From the UHGV virus genome UHGV-0275691: a DNA stretch of 24,961 nucleotides; one strand, 5' to 3'. Under the pieces are notes generated by a model, which saw only the letters and a program-made list of their open reading frames with translations, was not told the origin of the DNA and ran no database searches. Source of the DNA: a virus. The stretch's first letter is position 1; each line of letters starts with the position of its first letter. Shown here one piece after another: positions 10,784 to 15,688 of the stretch. A program made the translations under genes and the position numbers.

Positions 10784-11272
10784 TTAATAGCCATCAGAAG
10801 TAATCGCTACAGATTTCAATCCCTCAATGTCATCCTTGGACAGGGCGAACCATTCACCGTGCTTTCTCTTTGCGGCAAATTTGCGATGAAGCATGTTTTC
10901 AGTTTCTCTTCCACCAGGGATCAGGCACTCAAGCTTCAAGCAGTCTGGTCCAGAGTTGCCAAGCGATTTGATGCGTTGTGGAATGTTGGATGAATACCCA
11001 ATTTTGGTTAGCCCAGTTTTCTTCGATGACAAAACGTATACCTGAGGAGGTTCTTTTCTCTGGTCTTCCATTACACGTCTCATTGTTGCCATAAGTCCGC
11101 CGTGCATCAGCATTTCAACAAAGAACGCTGACCGAACACCTGACGACTTAAGCATGCCAGAAAATTCACTTGCCAATTCCATTAACTCTGCGATGTTTTC
11201 AGGAACTTTTTGGCAGTTATCTTCCTTGTATAAGGAAATCATTCTTTGAAGCTTTTCTTCTAATTGGTTCAT
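10784..11272 (-). CDS. T5orf172 (GIY-YIG-like) domain protein with an uncharacterised helical N-terminal domain, 162 aa
   Basis: C-terminal region VYVLSS..GLTKIGYSSNIPQRIKSL...ENMLHRKFAAKRKHGEWFAL fits the T5orf172/GIY-YIG-like motif order (YxL, KIGxS, R, E, GEWF); ATG at 11270-11272; the track start at 11308 is a GTG. Confidence 0.65.
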   Translation of the reverse strand: MNQLEEKLQRMISLYKEDNCQKVPENIAELMELASEFSGMLKSSGVRSAFFVEMLMHGGLMATMRRVMEDQRKEPPQVYVLSSKKTGLTKIGYSSNIPQRIKSLGNSGPDCLKLECLIPGGRETENMLHRKFAAKRKHGEWFALSKDDIEGLKSVAITSDGY

Positions 11273-11421
11273 AGCGTCTTTACCTTTTAGAAAGTGAGCC
11301 TGTCTCACAGAAAAGCCGCCCCGAGATGGTCGCCACCATATACGGCAGTTCTCAGGCTCAACTTTCTGAAAGGCTCGGGTGATGTAATATGCGCGTGAGA
11401 TGCGCTGTGAAATTCAGATGT

Positions 11422-11477: not shown

Positions 11478-11951
11478 TTATTTCAGGCATTGCGTCCTGA
11501 TGTATTCCTGCAGGTAGTTAACCTGCGCGGTTATCTTGTCGATTCCACTTCGGAGACGGTAATAATTGAGTTCAGCATCTGCTGTAAGTCTTGGGCTTTC
11601 TCCATCGCCCATGCCGCTGGCTCCGGTCGTTGACTTTGCACAGGTGGCGGCGACTTGCAGGCGCTTACGCCCAGCAGAAACATCAGCACGGAGACTTTCG
11701 ATAGTCGCGTTAGCATCAGCAAGCTCCTTTGTGTATCTTGCGTCGAGTTCTGCTACATCACGTTGACGCTTCCGCATGTCAGCGATGGTGGCGTTCGCCT
11801 TCTCCAGTTCACTGGCCTTGTTATCGCGCTGCTCTTTGTAGGCGATTGCGTTATCACGGTAATGATTAACAGCCCATGACAGGCAGACGATGATGCAGAT
11901 AACCAGAGCATAAATAATCGCGGCGACTCTGCTCACTGATCTATCCCCCAA
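11478..11951 (-). CDS. Rz: Inner-membrane spanin Rz (i-spanin)
   Basis: N-terminal half matches lambda Rz ([22 protein letters not shown]); position after R; embedded Rz1 frame. Confidence 0.9.
11531..11722 (-). CDS. Rz1: Outer-membrane lipoprotein spanin Rz1 (o-spanin), embedded in Rz in the +1 frame
   Basis: Embedded ORF with signal peptide, lipobox-like VSAC and a Pro-rich mature region (KSPPPVQ), typical of Rz1. Confidence 0.7.
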
Positions 11952-12466
11952 CAGGCTAATGCGCTTTCCTGGTCACGACGAATAACCTGTCCATAGCAGT
12001 TATTTGAACGTATGCGGCAATCGCGCCCACCATCTTTTATCCACCAGCGAATCGCCTCGCATGCACCTTTACGATCACCGGCATTCAGCCGCTTATAAAA
12101 CGTCGACGGGAAACACTTACCGGGGCCAATGTTATAGGGACAAAATGACGCGATACCCGCTTTCTGTGGTTCGGTCAGTGGCACTTTAATATTGCGCTCC
12201 ACCCATGCCAGCGCCTTATCCCGTTCAATGGCGTTAACCTGGTCGCATTTTTCCTTCGACAGTTTCATACCGGGAAAAACGGGTTTTCCATCCACCACCG
12301 TGGCACCCCGACAGATGGTCCAGATGCCGGAACCATCGCGGTATGCCGTTGTGTGGTTACCTTCTTTTTCATCCAGAAACTGGTCGAGAATATCAGGCGC
12401 AGGCGCACCGACGGCAATCAGTGCCAGAACGGCAGCCGACAGGCCGTATCTGATTTTTGCGTTCAT
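11933..12466 (-). CDS. R: Endolysin R, T4-type lysozyme with N-terminal signal-anchor-release (SAR) domain
   Basis: 177 aa; hydrophobic N-terminus ([13 protein letters not shown]) followed by an [17 protein letters not shown] catalytic region, similar to phage 21 / Stx-phage SAR endolysins. Confidence 0.92.
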
Positions 12467-12571
12467 GGATATTTATCAGGATTTATCGGTTTCTGAACCC
12501 TGGATATGTTTATCTGTCCCGGCCTGTTGAATCAGGCAAGGAATAGTTAAATACAATAGAGAGGATTGTTT

Positions 12572-12844
12572 ATGGACAATAGCACCATTTCTCTACAGGA
12601 GTTGCTCGACTGCATTTCCAGGCTTCGGGATGATGTAAATGCCCTTACTGTCGCATTTTCATATCTGGCATTCTCAATTCCCAAGGAACAAATGCAACCA
12701 ACACTGGCATCGCTCCAGCTTGAATCACTCAACCCCAAATGGTCCCAGCAACAACAAAATTCTTTCAAGTGGCTGGCGGTATTACTGGAAGAAAAATATG
12801 CTGGTGAAATTACCATTTCGGCGGAGTCTTCAGAGAACCAGTAA
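12572..12844 (+). CDS. Hypothetical acidic 90-aa protein encoded antisense to the lysis operon, between the YdfR-like gene and R
   Basis: ATG at 12572 with GAGAGGA Shine-Dalgarno 6 nt upstream; candidate sigma70 promoter TTGAAT-N15-TAAATA upstream; no similarity I can recognise. Confidence 0.45.
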   Translation: MDNSTISLQELLDCISRLRDDVNALTVAFSYLAFSIPKEQMQPTLASLQLESLNPKWSQQQQNSFKWLAVLLEEKYAGEITISAESSENQ

Positions 12845-13154
12845 TTCTTCCCGGTAGCTTTCCTTTGTAGGTTATCCACACATTCTGCGCCTCTAAAATT
12901 ATGGGGCGCTTTTCCGGCGACAGCTCATCCCCTTCACATAACCCGGCAGCAACATCCAGGAAGACCTGTCTGATGCTCCTTCTGGCTGCTGCCTCATAAA
13001 ACTCCAGCGCGGCACCTTCAACACGGTCCAGCGAGATGTCCAGGTCAAAAATTTCACCGTCAAAGCGTTTTTTGTCCCGTAACGCTAAAGTTACCGTAAC
13101 TTTATTCTCAAAATTGCGGATCCCTTTCACAATCAGTTCATAGTTTTGAGTCAT
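12810..13154 (-). CDS. Small ORF between holin and endolysin at the position of YdfR (DUF1327) in Qin-type prophages
   Basis: Starts 4 nt after the S stop; N-terminus MTQNYELIVKGIRNFENKVTVT resembles recalled YdfR-family N-termini; C-terminus diverges and overlaps the antisense ORF. Confidence 0.6.
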   Translation of the reverse strand: MTQNYELIVKGIRNFENKVTVTLALRDKKRFDGEIFDLDISLDRVEGAALEFYEAAARRSIRQVFLDVAAGLCEGDELSPEKRPIILEAQNVWITYKGKLPGRITGSLKTPPKW

Positions 13155-13158
13155 TGAA

Positions 13159-13374
13159 TTACTCTCCCCGTGCAGCCTTACGCTTGTCTTCTTTAATCTT
13201 GAAATAAAGGTTTGTCAGGTACGTCAGCAGGCCAAATACCAGGCTACCCAGCACTCCAATTGCCGCCCACTGTGAGGGCGTGACTTTATCTAGCAGCTGT
13301 AAAAACCAGTACCCGGCACTACCTGCTGAGGTGCCATAGGCGACACCCGTTGTTAACTTATCCATGGATTGCAT
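13159..13374 (-). CDS. S: Holin S, phage 21 pinholin type (71 aa) with dual-start motif M-Q-S-M
   Basis: Near-identical to recalled S21/EssD-type holins; GAGGTGGGG RBS; Met1 and Met4 give the holin/antiholin dual start. Confidence 0.93.
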
Positions 13375-13486: not shown

Positions 13487-13519
13487 AAAAAATGGAAAAA
13501 CCCGCTCGACGGCGGGTTT
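13487..13519 (-). terminator. Rho-independent terminator on the minus strand, about 115 nt upstream of S (AAACCCGC-loop-GCGGGUUU then UUUUUCCAUUUUUU)
   Basis: 8-bp GC-rich stem with 6-nt loop followed by a long U tract on the late-operon strand; candidate tR'-like terminator. Confidence 0.65.
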
Positions 13520-13947: not shown

Positions 13948-15030
13948 ATGAAAAAATTAACAGTGGCAATTTCTGCTGTAGCTGCATCAGTACTGATGGC
14001 GATGTCTGCTCAGGCAGCTGAAATTTATAATAAAGACAGTAACAAGCTGGATCTGTACGGGAAAGTTAATGCTAAGCACTACTTCTCCTCTAATGATGCA
14101 GATGATGGTGATACTACTTATGCCCGTCTTGGCTTCAAAGGTGAAACCCAAATCAACGATCAACTGACTGGTTTCGGTCAGTGGGAATATGAATTCAAAG
14201 GCAACCGCGCTGAATCTCAAGGTTCTTCCAAAGACAAAACCCGTCTTGCATTTGCAGGCCTGAAATTTGGTGATTACGGCTCAATCGATTACGGCCGTAA
14301 CTACGGTGTAGCATACGACATCGGTGCGTGGACTGACGTCCTGCCAGAATTCGGTGGTGATACCTGGACCCAAACAGATGTGTTCATGACTGGTCGCACT
14401 ACTGGTGTTGCAACTTATCGTAACAACGACTTCTTTGGTCTGGTCGATGGCCTGAACTTTGCTGCTCAGTATCAGGGTAAAAATGACCGCACTGACGTAA
14501 CTGAAGCCAATGGTGATGGTTTCGGTTTCTCCACTACTTATGAGTATGAAGGATTCGGCGTGGGTGCAACCTATGCTAAATCAGATCGCACTGACGGTCA
14601 GGTCGCCTATGGTAAGAGCAAATTCAATGCCTCCGGCAAAAATGCGGAAGTATGGGCTGCAGGCCTGAAATATGATGCGAACAATATCTATCTGGCTACC
14701 ACATATTCTGAAACTCAGAATATGACCGTTTTTGGTAATAACCATATTGCAAACAAAGCACAAAACTTTGAAGCAGTAGCACAATATCAGTTTGACTTCG
14801 GTCTGCGCCCATCTGTTGCTTACCTTCAGTCAAAAGGTAAAGACCTTGGTGTTCATGGTGACCGAGACTTAGTCAAGTATGTCGATGTCGGTGCTACTTA
14901 CTACTTTAATAAAAACATGTCCACTTTTGTTGATTACAAAATCAACTTAATTGACGATAGTAAGTTTACCAAAACAGCTGGTATTGATACTGATGACATC
15001 GTTGCTGTAGGTCTGGTTTACCAGTTCTAA
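13948..15030 (+). CDS. nmpC: Phage-encoded OmpC/OmpF-family general porin (NmpC/Lc-like), 360 aa
   Basis: Signal peptide ending AQA/AE, conserved porin N-terminus ([17 protein letters not shown]) and C-terminal YQF; located between Q and S on the strand opposite the late genes, as for nmpC in DLP12 and lc in PA-2. Confidence 0.93.
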
Positions 15031-15219: not shown

Positions 15220-15603
15220 TTAATTAGAGTTATTAACAACGATATCCATCTCTAACCGGATATCTAATGCCATTAACATCCCTTCAATTATGCCCTCAGC
15301 CTTTTGTAACCTTTTCCCGATATAACCATCAGAGCAGCAATGCTTACCTGCCAGTGACATGAATGTCATACCGACTACATAATAATCTACTAATAAATCG
15401 TGCAAATCGCTGTTGTTCTTTTTCAGACGGGCCATGCACCCGCAAATGATCATCGCGTCATCGTCACAACATTGCGGGCGAGATTTTACTTTTGAAGGAA
15501 TTAATCCCTTAAAACCGGCGGCAATGGACGACCAGGTCACATCTTCATGATTATTAGCCGCCCACGCTCCCCAACGCTCAAGAACCATCTGAATATCACG
15601 CAT
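15220..15603 (-). CDS. Q: Late-gene antiterminator Q, DLP12 QuuD type (127 aa)
   Basis: Translation from [12 protein letters not shown] matches recalled QuuD; ATG at 15601-15603 with GGAG RBS; the track start is an upstream TTG. Confidence 0.85.
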
Positions 15604-15688
15604 CAACTTACTCCACAAAACTCAGACCAGAACGCCAATTACAAGCAAAAATCAACAAAACAGTATTAGTTGATTGTTATCTCTGACT

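What the first reader, a model, noticed from the sequence alone, without database searches (positions are those of the whole stretch)
12467..12860. Antisense ORF with strong RBS embedded inside the lysis cassette between the YdfR-like gene and R
A 90-aa acidic ORF (12572-12844) on the plus strand runs opposite to S, the YdfR-like gene, R and Rz. It has a near-consensus Shine-Dalgarno (GAGAGGA, 6-nt spacing) and a plausible sigma70 promoter (TTGAAT-N15-TAAATA) lying in the 105-bp gap upstream of R. Its 3' end overlaps the diverged C-terminus of the YdfR-like gene by 35 nt, suggesting it arrived with an insertion that remodelled that gene. A gene transcribed convergently to the late operon at this position would be expressed in the lysogen and could regulate lysis timing or act as a conversion or anti-defence factor. 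I do not recognise the protein.
Basis: seen in the sequence. Interest (0 to 1): 0.6.

Follow-up and report, generated by a model that had tools for sequence, protein, structure and literature searches.

The report
Conserved antisense moron gene in lysis cassette
The small plus-strand ORF between the YdfR-like gene and the endolysin is a real, conserved but uncharacterised protein gene, and it belongs to a large set of interchangeable small-gene cassettes that sit backwards inside the late operons of lambda-like prophages behind a shared structured RNA leader.

Summary
ORF 12572-12844(+) encodes a 90-aa acidic protein with a good Shine-Dalgarno sequence, 105 nt from R, overlapping the YdfR-like gene by 35 nt.

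It is a genuine gene. The frame is open in homologues from Escherichia, Citrobacter, Klebsiella, Atlantibacter, Sodalis and Serratia. dN/dS is about 0.2-0.4. The overlapping minus-strand 110-aa ORF is a wobble-sharing shadow that carries stops in other alleles.

It is already annotated (RefSeq WP_000370550.1, PHROG 2411) but has no known function, fold relative or paper.

It is an insertion: about 1,130 E. coli genomes carry it, others have an ORF-less allele or a different cargo, and K-12 has ydfR abutting rrrQ.

That hairpin belongs to a roughly 100-nt structured leader, absent from Rfam, that precedes at least 40 different small ORFs. These lie mainly at two late-operon sites (YdfR|R and tail M|L), always antisense.

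Each cargo family checked travels with its own C-terminal tail on the convergent late gene.

Function is unknown. A lysis-specific role is unlikely. My best guess is an independently transcribed moron protein acting by protein binding in the lysogen.

The parts
12572..12844 (+). Protein-coding gene: 90 aa plus stop. Acidic, predicted three-helix protein, member of PHROG 2411, RefSeq WP_000370550.1. The last 8 codons and the stop (AESSENQ*) are the antisense of the YdfR tail and are predicted to be disordered.
12559..12565 (+). Shine-Dalgarno sequence GAGAGGA, 6 nt before the ATG. The GAGGA core is kept in all E. coli alleles.
12496..12558 (+). Diverged, shortened copy of the conserved cassette leader. 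The motif CCCTGGATATGTT lies at 12498-12510 and contains the -10-like hexamer TATGTT (12505-12510), my candidate promoter element.
12523..12538 (+). Leader hairpin 1: GCCTG-TTGAAT-CAGGC. The stems differ but stay paired in other alleles.
12526..12815 (.). Approximate extent of DNA present here but absent from the ORF-less allele. GC is 0.42, against 0.50-0.52 in the neighbouring genes.
12810..13154 (-). Convergent late gene, YdfR-like (DUF1327), 114 aa. Its last 19 codons (12813-12869, YKGKLPGRITGSLKTPPKW) form the tail that travels with this cargo.
12887..12913 (+). Candidate weak intrinsic terminator for the plus-strand transcript: 7-bp GC-rich stem, then TTTT, dG -15 kcal/mol. It lies inside ydfR and is also present in ORF-less alleles. 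Its function is not shown.
   Evidence: not called by the scan
12547..12879 (-). Shadow ORF of 110 aa with a GTG start, in the wobble-sharing antisense frame. Not a gene.
11933..12466 (-). R, a phage lysozyme and the next late gene downstream of the cassette.
13159..13374 (-). S, a P21-type class II holin.

Best explanation
The ORF is a genuine moron gene: an accessory gene inserted backwards into the late operon of a lambdoid prophage.

It is one cargo of a modular cassette. On the plus strand the cassette has a leader that forms a 5' hairpin in the RNA, a Shine-Dalgarno sequence and a small ORF. On the minus strand, the 3' end of the upstream late gene (here the YdfR-like gene) carries a C-terminal tail that is specific to the cargo.

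I infer the following steps.
- Transcription starts from a weak -10-like element (TATGTT, 12505-12510) just upstream of the hairpin.
- It runs against the late operon and is independent of Q. The gene can therefore be expressed when late genes are silent, as in the lysogen.
- The product is a soluble, acidic, three-helix protein of about 10 kDa with no enzymatic features. It most likely works by binding another protein.
- Because close relatives are chromosomal genes in Serratia and Sodalis and also occur on conjugative plasmids, the target is more likely a conserved host component, or something host-related, than the lysis machinery.

Shown: the gene is real, it is inserted, it is modular, and the leader structure lies in the sense strand.

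Inferred: the promoter, the timing of expression, and a protein-binding mode of action.

Unknown: the target and the phenotype.
For: Coding:
- The frame is open in all homologues across six genera. The antisense shadow frame has stops in them.
- dN/dS is 0.17-0.41.
- 79 of 82 close loci are intact.
- A 52-sequence family alignment has conserved motifs (E-L-L, AFSYL, E51, N54, Q62, F65).
- AlphaFold2 gives mean pLDDT 81 with three helices and a disordered residue range 80-90.

Already catalogued: PGAP annotates it as a hypothetical protein. It matches PHROG 2411 at E 1.6e-59, and all 13 diverse members tested also match.

Insertion: presence/absence and alternative cargo occur at the same site. 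GC is low.

Orientation: it is always opposite to the late genes, in E. coli, Citrobacter, Klebsiella and Atlantibacter prophages. The flanking genes I could identify around related cassettes in viral contigs are also all on the opposite strand.

Leader:
- Two helices. 94.7% of cells are paired, 8 of 13 pairs show compensatory changes, and 0 of 500 shuffles reach the observed values.
- About 57 G.U cells are valid only on the cargo-sense strand.
- A TAnnnT hexamer lies a fixed 6 nt before the conserved TCAGCCCG in the leaders read.
- The window's own copy aligns weakly, at the expected place.

Not lysis-specific: homologues occur between tail M and L, on 72 conjugative plasmids, and between dinI and bssS in Serratia.
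Against: - No canonical sigma-70 promoter was found by the scan. No -35 element is conserved. There is no transcript or protein evidence in any paper searched.
- The window's leader is a truncated version without hairpin 2. It scores only 16 bits, E about 0.08.
- About 4-5% of alleles are frameshifted or truncated, so the gene is dispensable in some prophages.
- No terminator is clearly present.
- There is no fold or sequence relative, so the protein-binding mode of action is a guess from size and composition.
Confidence: 0.75

Rival explanations
1. The functional product is the plus-strand RNA, not the protein. Expressed in the lysogen, it is antisense to the 3' end of ydfR and to the ydfR-R junction. 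It would pair with late mRNA, either of the induced prophage (tuning R expression and lysis timing, the reader's idea) or of a superinfecting relative carrying the same cassette (giving exclusion).
For: - Convergent orientation with a 35-nt CDS overlap, and no strong terminator before ydfR.
- Precedent: the STnc6030 antisense RNA inside the late genes of prophage BTP1 confers immunity to BTP1-like phages (PMC7067206).
- It would explain why each cargo travels with its own stretch of the convergent gene.
Against: - Purifying selection acts at the protein level, and the frame is conserved to about 30% identity.
- Homologues exist with no convergent gene at all, on plasmids and in Serratia and Sodalis chromosomes.
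- The same cassettes sit between tail genes, so the effect is not lysis-specific.
- An RNA role could coexist with a protein role.
Confidence: 0.12
2. The ORF and the C-terminal tail of the convergent late protein form a cognate pair. The small protein binds or neutralises the variable tail of YdfR-like proteins. The pairs diversify together, in the way polymorphic toxin-immunity or lock-and-key pairs do.
For: - The tail motif [IY][KE]G-x(4-7)-[IL][TF]G[SD][LI]xxP accompanies this ORF in E. coli, Citrobacter (two partner types), Klebsiella and Atlantibacter. The partners otherwise have different N-terminal parts.
- Partners with the same N-terminus carry different tails when the cargo differs (L091, L112, L161, L176).
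- DUF1883 cargos keep their own partner motif in two contexts.
Against: - Physical linkage between recombination breakpoints explains co-inheritance without any interaction.
- Many E. coli genomes keep the tail without the ORF (L084).
- Homologues on plasmids and chromosomes have no partner.
- The tails are short and not toxin-like.
Confidence: 0.1
3. It is not a gene. The open frame is the antisense shadow of a minus-strand gene, or a chance ORF in a spacer.
For: A 110-aa minus-strand ORF (12547-12879) covers it in the wobble-sharing frame and shows an equally low dN/dS.
Against: - The minus frame has 1-2 stops in the four other E. coli alleles and 1-4 in other genera. The plus frame is open in all.
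- The plus frame has an ATG and a conserved SD sequence. The minus frame has a GTG inside ydfR.
- The plus-frame product forms a 125-member family found by profile search and folds with pLDDT 81.
Confidence: 0.02

Closest known systems
Morons of lambdoid phages (Juhala et al. 2000 concept; examples lom, bor, HK97 gp15, and the NmpC/Lc-type porin gene that also sits in this window)
   Same: An extra gene, present in some relatives and absent in others at the same spot. It is inserted between late genes, oriented or expressed independently of the late operon, and has lower GC. The definition as quoted in PMC2629481 and PMC4104026 fits.
   Different: These cassettes share a conserved, structured leader of about 100 nt on the sense RNA. 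They swap at least 40 small cargos at fixed sites. They bring along a cargo-specific C-terminal extension of the upstream late gene. I found no description of such a scaffold. A classical promoter and terminator were not demonstrated.
PHROG 2411 / RefSeq WP_000370550.1 (hypothetical protein)
   Same: The window protein is a full-length member (E 1.6e-59, profile positions 1-90 of 90). It is identical to the PGAP-annotated protein in E. coli CP53 and many others.
   Different: The catalogue entry carries no function, context or family limits.
STnc6030 antisense RNA within the late genes of Salmonella prophage BTP1 (PMC7067206)
   Same: A transcript encoded inside, and antisense to, a prophage late operon. 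It is expressed in the lysogen and protects against related phages.
   Different: STnc6030 is non-coding. Here the conserved unit is a protein, with homologues outside phages. No expression or exclusion data exist for this gene.
Polymorphic toxin/immunity-style loci (constant N-terminus, variable C-terminus, adjacent cognate small gene)
   Same: The convergent late proteins have a constant N-terminal part and a tail that changes together with the neighbouring small gene.
   Different: The orientation is convergent, the tails are only about 20-60 aa with no toxin features, the small gene also occurs alone, and no interaction or toxicity has been shown.

Membership tests
Moron (accessory gene inserted in a phage operon) | Present in some phages and absent in close relatives at the same position | tested here: met
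   About 1,130 E. coli genomes have the full region. Others have only the flanks 138-140 nt apart (L084), a different cargo (L086), or ydfR overlapping rrrQ (K-12)..
Moron (accessory gene inserted in a phage operon) | Own promoter | tested here: inconclusive
The consensus scan found none near the ORF. A TAnnnT hexamer lies a fixed 6 nt before the conserved TCAGCCCG, and sense-strand RNA structure argues for a start just upstream of the hairpin. No -35 element and no transcript data.
Moron (accessory gene inserted in a phage operon) | Own terminator | tested here: inconclusive
   No terminator was called on the plus strand. A 7-bp hairpin followed by TTTT at 12887-12913 is a weak candidate.
Moron (accessory gene inserted in a phage operon) | Composition differing from the surrounding genes | tested here: met
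   Insert GC is 0.42, against 0.52 for R, 0.50 for S and 0.50 for the whole window.
Moron (accessory gene inserted in a phage operon) | Expressed from the prophage independently of the late operon | not testable with these tools
   Only the orientation (opposite strand) is shown. This needs RNA-seq or 5' RACE from a lysogen.
PHROG 2411 | Full-length match to the family profile | tested here: met
   E 1.6e-59, residues 1-90 on profile positions 1-90 of 90. All 13 diverse homologues tested also match.
Lysis regulators (antiholin, or a lysis-timing factor of the S/R cassette) | Membrane association or holin-like transmembrane segment, encoded in the lysis transcript, restricted to lysis cassettes | tested here: not met
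   The protein is soluble and acidic (GRAVY -0.29) with no holin family hit. It is on the opposite strand. Homologues occur in tail clusters, plasmids and chromosomes.
Known anti-phage defence proteins (PADLOC-DB) | Match to a defence-system protein model | tested here: not met
   No hit for the window protein. One of 13 relatives gave a stray hit at E 0.005.
Any Pfam, NCBIfam or solved-structure family | Significant sequence or fold match | tested here: not met
Rfam RNA families (for the leader) | Covariance-model match | tested here: not met
   Nothing at the gathering threshold in seven leader-bearing loci. Nothing at E 1 or better on a canonical leader, and nothing relevant in the window.
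Polymorphic toxin-immunity pair | Variable C-terminal domain with toxic activity, neutralised by the adjacent gene product | not testable with these tools
   Only co-inheritance of tail and cargo was seen. The orientation is convergent rather than tandem.

The most novel reading that the evidence does not exclude
The ORF is one allele of an undescribed, fast-swapping cassette system in the late operons of enterobacterial lambdoid prophages. A conserved sense-strand leader RNA has two covarying helices and a possible alternative pairing (UCAGCC with GGCUGA). That pairing could act as a switch driving expression of dozens of small proteins encoded antisense to the late genes. Each small protein is paired with a matching C-terminal tail on the convergent late protein. 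The pairs could be specificity determinants, for example for exclusion of related phages or for control of the late protein.
Probability: 0.2. Interest if true: 0.8.

Novelty: new variant of a known kind. Interest (0 to 1): 0.55.

Why it matters
About a fifth of complete E. coli genomes (about 1,130 of 5,426) carry this gene, and nothing is known about it. Placing it in a cassette family gives a concrete handle on a large class of prophage 'dark matter' genes. That family has a shared structured leader, fixed insertion sites in the late operon, at least 40 cargos, and relatives on plasmids and in Serratia chromosomes.

Three things become directly testable:
- whether these genes are expressed in lysogens;
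- whether the leader is a regulatory RNA;
- whether the cargos act on incoming phages, on the host, or on the neighbouring late protein. YdfR itself was recently reported to bind RNase E (PMC13232886).

Tried and rejected
- Shadow-ORF test. The minus-strand 110-aa ORF shares wobble positions and has the same low dN/dS, so dN/dS alone cannot choose the strand. Stop-codon counts in other alleles and genera settled it for the plus frame.
It was not called by the scan and is not conserved. TTGAAT is a hairpin loop.
- Alternative promoters. By eye I looked for sigma-54, sigma-E, extended -10 and LexA-box patterns in the leader and found none convincing. This is my own reading, not a tool result.
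- Relation to the alternative cargo in L086: BLASTP found nothing.
- Relation to a 13-member group of other cargos sharing an E-I-x-x-L-K...L-P pattern: hhalign gave E 0.013 and probability 3%, which is not significant, so I make no superfamily claim.
- A viral-contig scan with the divergent protein P0036 found nothing.
- Helix 2 was first counted one column out of register and then corrected.
- Strand of the leader. A few cells (for example C.A in the L113 type) would favour the other strand, but about 57 wobble cells favour the cargo-sense strand.
- Literature. Searches for the accessions, PHROG number, Ybl58, YdfR/DUF1327, DUF1883, and moron or lysis-cassette terms found no description of the gene or the leader.
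- Direction of the indel. The ORF-less allele keeps a mutated leader motif and the tail, so I read it as a secondary deletion rather than a naive site. This is an inference.

Full report
**1. What is in the window**

The late operon of a lambdoid prophage runs on the minus strand. In order it contains:
- Q antiterminator (15223-15618);
- a terminator-like hairpin at 13498-13519;
- S, a P21-type holin (13159-13374);
- a DUF1327 YdfR-like gene (12810-13154);
- R, a lysozyme (11933-12466);
- Rz and Rz1;
- a T5orf172-domain gene;
- the terminase genes Nu1 and A.

A porin gene (13948-15030) lies on the plus strand between Q and S.

It encodes 90 aa, pI 4.34, net charge -6.5. GAGAGGA lies 6 nt before the ATG. 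The ORF starts 105 nt from the R start codon and overlaps the YdfR-like gene by 35 nt. Every descriptive statement of the finding is correct.

**2. Is it a gene?**

Its third codon positions coincide with those of the plus ORF.

NG86 dN/dS among ten E. coli alleles is therefore low in both frames: 0.31 and 0.28 pooled. It is 0.9-1.2 in the other four frames.

The strands are separated by stop codons. The plus frame is open in every homologue examined. The minus frame has no stop in the window allele, 1-2 stops in the four other E. coli alleles, and 1-4 stops in Citrobacter, the plasmid copy, Klebsiella, Sodalis, Atlantibacter and a Serratia-like chromosome.

Further support:
- 79 of 82 close loci have the intact 90-codon frame.
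- Frameshifted or truncated variants exist but are a small minority of sequences.
- A profile search finds 125 proteins. They include a 92-aa branch throughout Serratia, Chania, Gibbsiella, Chimaeribacter, Sodalis and Acerihabitans.
- The 52-sequence alignment shows conserved positions along the first 70 residues.
- AlphaFold2 on that alignment gives mean pLDDT 81, with helices at 8-35, 38-52 and 59-77 and a disordered residue range 80-90.

The ORF is a real protein-coding gene, and the minus ORF is its shadow.

**3. Is it known?**

RefSeq/PGAP annotates it as hypothetical protein WP_000370550.1. It is a full-length member of PHROG 2411, function unknown.

There is no match in any of the following:
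- Pfam, NCBIfam or PADLOC;
- the sequences of solved structures;
- Foldseek against BFVD.

No paper in the library mentions the accessions, the PHROG number or the stray name 'Ybl58'.

**4. It is an insertion**

Of 5,426 complete E. coli genomes, about 1,130 carry at least 80% of the 414-nt region. Many others match only its two ends. Three other states of the site were seen.

- *An ORF-less allele.* In L084 the two ends lie 138 nt apart. A 116-aa YdfR protein ends ...GSLKTPPESQP and is followed by a 63-nt spacer and then R.
- *The compact state.* In K-12 Qin, ydfR (103 aa, with a different C-terminal third) overlaps rrrQ directly.
- *A different cargo.* In L086 the same site holds a different plus-strand ORF, PHROG 2572.

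The alignment places the extra DNA at about 12526-12815. The last eight codons and the stop of the ORF are therefore the antisense of the YdfR tail. This fits their disorder in the model and their lack of conservation.

The insert has GC 0.42, against 0.50-0.52 in the flanking genes.

The ORF-less allele keeps a mutated copy of the leader motif and also keeps the tail. I therefore read it as a later deletion of the ORF. This is an inference.

**5. Where else the gene occurs**

Prophage copies, always on the strand opposite to the late genes:
- Citrobacter meridianamericanus: between a 238-aa gene and a different holin.
- C. freundii: between a 63-aa gene and the holin.
- Klebsiella: next to a 62-aa gene near the terminase.
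- Atlantibacter: between tail genes M and L, next to a 71-aa gene.
- A Stx2k phage: S-YdfR-ORF followed by a second, unrelated holin/endolysin set.

Copies outside prophages:
- 72 conjugative E. coli plasmids carry a copy about 63% identical. In pNTEC2 it lies beside an autotransporter.
- In Serratia it is a stand-alone gene between dinI and bssS.
- It is also chromosomal in Sodalis.

A role tied to lysis is therefore unlikely.

**6. The upstream region is a shared, structured leader**

In other alleles and genera the stem sequence differs but stays paired.

A pattern search with the motif that precedes the hairpin (CCCTGGWTATG) plus the hairpin loop found 91 stretches in viral contigs.

The canonical leader is about 100 nt and has these parts in order:
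- a TAnnnT hexamer;
- 6 nt;
- TCAGCCCG;
- hairpin 1;
- hairpin 2 (AGAGG-GATGGCUGAUUA-CCUCU);
- a Shine-Dalgarno sequence;
- the ATG.

Structural support:
- On a MAFFT alignment of 18 leaders, 93% of cells are paired. Seven of 13 pairs show changes on both sides, and no shuffle of 500 reaches the observed values.
- A covariance model built from that alignment finds 58 leaders in 59 loci.
- On the resulting alignment, which is fitted to the model, 94.7% of cells are paired. Eight pairs and 53 cells show compensatory change.
- About 57 cells are G.U or U.G. On the late strand these would be A.C mismatches, so the structure belongs to the cargo-sense RNA.

This is indirect evidence that a plus-strand transcript begins just upstream of hairpin 1.

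No Rfam family matches.

The minimum-energy fold of one leader pairs UCAGCC with the GGCUGA in the loop of hairpin 2. That pairing is an alternative to hairpin 2, so a switch is possible. I did not test it.

The window's own leader is a shortened, diverged copy. It has the exact motif and a short hairpin 1 but no hairpin 2. It scores 16 bits (E about 0.08) at the expected position, and so do the other four E. coli alleles. Nothing is found in the ORF-less allele or K-12, or at the homologous gene in the plasmid, Serratia and Sodalis loci. Two weak hits lie elsewhere. One is on the plasmid locus. The other precedes the DUF1883 gene in L102 (see point 8).

**7. Cargo diversity and insertion sites**

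Behind the leader come many different small ORFs of about 55-105 aa.
- There are at least 12 types in viral contigs and at least 40 distinct N-termini in the metagenome hits.
- Of ten tested, two are DUF1883. Seven match only unknown-function PHROGs, and three match no PHROG at all.
- A visible resemblance between the PHROG 2411 family and a group of other cargos did not reach significance (hhalign E 0.013, probability 3%).

Of 68 leaders in viral contigs:
- 30-33 lie between R and YdfR;
- 17 lie between tail L and tail M (or the small partner gene next to M);
- 17 have neighbours I did not identify.

Every neighbour I could identify is on the opposite strand.

**8. The convergent gene's tail changes with the cargo**

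With this ORF, the convergent late gene ends in [IY][KE]G-x(4-7)-[IL][TF]G[SD][LI]xxP in all four genera. The rest of the partner differs: it is DUF1327, a 238-aa protein, or a 62-71-aa coiled-coil-like protein.

Partners that share the N-terminus MSLDNKVELLN...AQEQTA carry four different tails with four different cargos.

YdfR proteins likewise have different C-termini with different cargos.

So the exchanged unit is the partner tail plus the cargo, flanked by the leader on one side and the partner's constant part on the other. Physical linkage is the simplest explanation. A functional pairing is possible but untested.

A non-phage contig (L102/L250) has a leader-like 5' region in front of a DUF1883 gene, about 540 nt upstream of a PHROG 2411 homologue. 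This is weak evidence that the leader and these small genes also go together outside phages.

**9. Mechanism**

*Shown:*
- The gene is real and under purifying selection.
- It is inserted, and it always lies antisense to the late genes.
- It sits in a modular cassette, and the leader structure is on the sense RNA.

*Inferred:*
- The gene has its own transcription start at a -10-like TATGTT (12505-12510).
- Transcription is independent of Q, so expression is possible in the lysogen.
- The small acidic helical product acts by binding a partner.
- Given the chromosomal and plasmid relatives, that partner is more likely a host-related component than the lysis machinery.

*Not resolved:*
- The promoter. 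No -35 is conserved and the scan was negative.
- The terminator. There is only a weak candidate at 12887-12913.
- The target and the phenotype.

*Rivals:*
- An antisense-RNA effect on late mRNA. The closest precedent is STnc6030 in BTP1 (PMC7067206).
- A cognate interaction with the YdfR tail.

YdfR of K-12 was recently reported to bind the catalytic half of RNase E and possibly RNA (PMC13232886). This is context only.

**10. Verdict**

The ORF itself is an already annotated, uncharacterised moron gene. New here is its setting: a cassette family with a conserved structured leader and cargo-linked partner tails at defined late-operon sites. I found no description of such a family.

Interest is moderate to fairly high: 0.55.

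Noticed in passing
window 12496-12558 (+); canonical copies e.g. L115 2077-2175, L091 4906-5004, L110 9364-9462(-): A conserved leader of about 100 nt with two covarying helices on the cargo-sense strand, absent from Rfam. It precedes at least 40 different small ORFs in lambdoid prophage late operons. A covariance model (R1) finds 58 copies in 59 loci.
   Followed up: yes
L115 2095-2180 (+): The predicted minimum-energy fold pairs the conserved UCAGCC (5' of hairpin 1) with GGCUGA in the loop of hairpin 2. That pairing excludes hairpin 2 and would free CCUCU to pair with the Shine-Dalgarno region. This suggests a possible RNA switch.
   Followed up: partly
window 12813-12869 (-); L083 2742-2800(-); L087 4251-4310(-); L091 5264-5330(-); L106 4239-4300(-): The convergent late gene ends in the same short motif (KG...ITGSL..P) wherever this ORF occurs. 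Partners with identical N-termini carry other tails when the cargo differs (L112, L161, L176).
   Followed up: partly
L086 2612-2872 (+): The same YdfR|R site holds a different plus-strand ORF (86 aa, PHROG 2572) behind the same leader. There the YdfR frame runs on for about 90 more codons and overlaps that ORF, and PGAP calls the ydfR copy a pseudogene.
   Followed up: partly
window 12547-12879 (-): A 110-aa ORF in the wobble-sharing antisense frame of the real gene. It is open only in this allele. It is a textbook shadow ORF that mimics purifying selection in dN/dS tests.
   Followed up: yes
window 13948-15030 (+): A complete Gram-negative porin gene (Pfam Porin_1, E 2e-151) lies between Q and S on the strand opposite to the late operon. 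It is a second moron in the window, in the position nmpC holds in DLP12 (the DLP12 comparison is from my own knowledge).
   Followed up: partly
window 13498-13519 (-): A terminator-like hairpin with a T-run upstream of S on the late strand, where a tR'-type terminator downstream of the late promoter would be expected.
   Followed up: no
window 10784-11308 (-): A 174-aa gene with T5orf172/MUG113 domains lies just downstream of Rz. In the otherwise identical E. coli CP53 region, PGAP calls this gene a Rha family regulator.
   Followed up: no
L101 4001-4282; L093 5001-5279: In Serratia and relatives the homologue is a stand-alone chromosomal gene between dinI and bssS. The S. marcescens cluster alone has 110 member sequences. 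It has no cassette leader and no convergent partner.
   Followed up: partly
L085 6030-6284; plasmid hits H95-H118: A copy about 63% identical sits on 72 conjugative E. coli plasmids. In pNTEC2-42405 it lies directly downstream of a heptosyltransferase and autotransporter pair. One source names it Ybl58.
   Followed up: partly
L102 3081-3463 and 4001-4321 (same contig as L250): A non-phage metagenomic contig has a leader-like 5' region (TCAGCCCG, a different hairpin 1, GGCTGATGACCTCC) in front of a DUF1883 gene. A PHROG 2411 homologue lies about 540 nt downstream, next to a DUF892 stress-type gene.
   Followed up: partly
L097 1390-3408: In a Stx2k prophage, S, YdfR and this ORF are followed by a second, unrelated lysis set (two holins and an M15 peptidase) instead of R. 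So the ORF stays linked to the YdfR side.
   Followed up: no
L083 3587-4270 (+): A HicA/HicB-like pair lies just beyond the 238-aa partner gene in the Citrobacter prophage. It is another plus-strand accessory module. I recognised it from the sequence only.
   Followed up: no
L084 3891-4127; L097 3674-3997: IraM anti-adaptor genes, intact or truncated, sit on the plus strand just upstream of S in related prophages. This is another small host-regulator-binding protein carried as a moron in the same neighbourhood.
   Followed up: no
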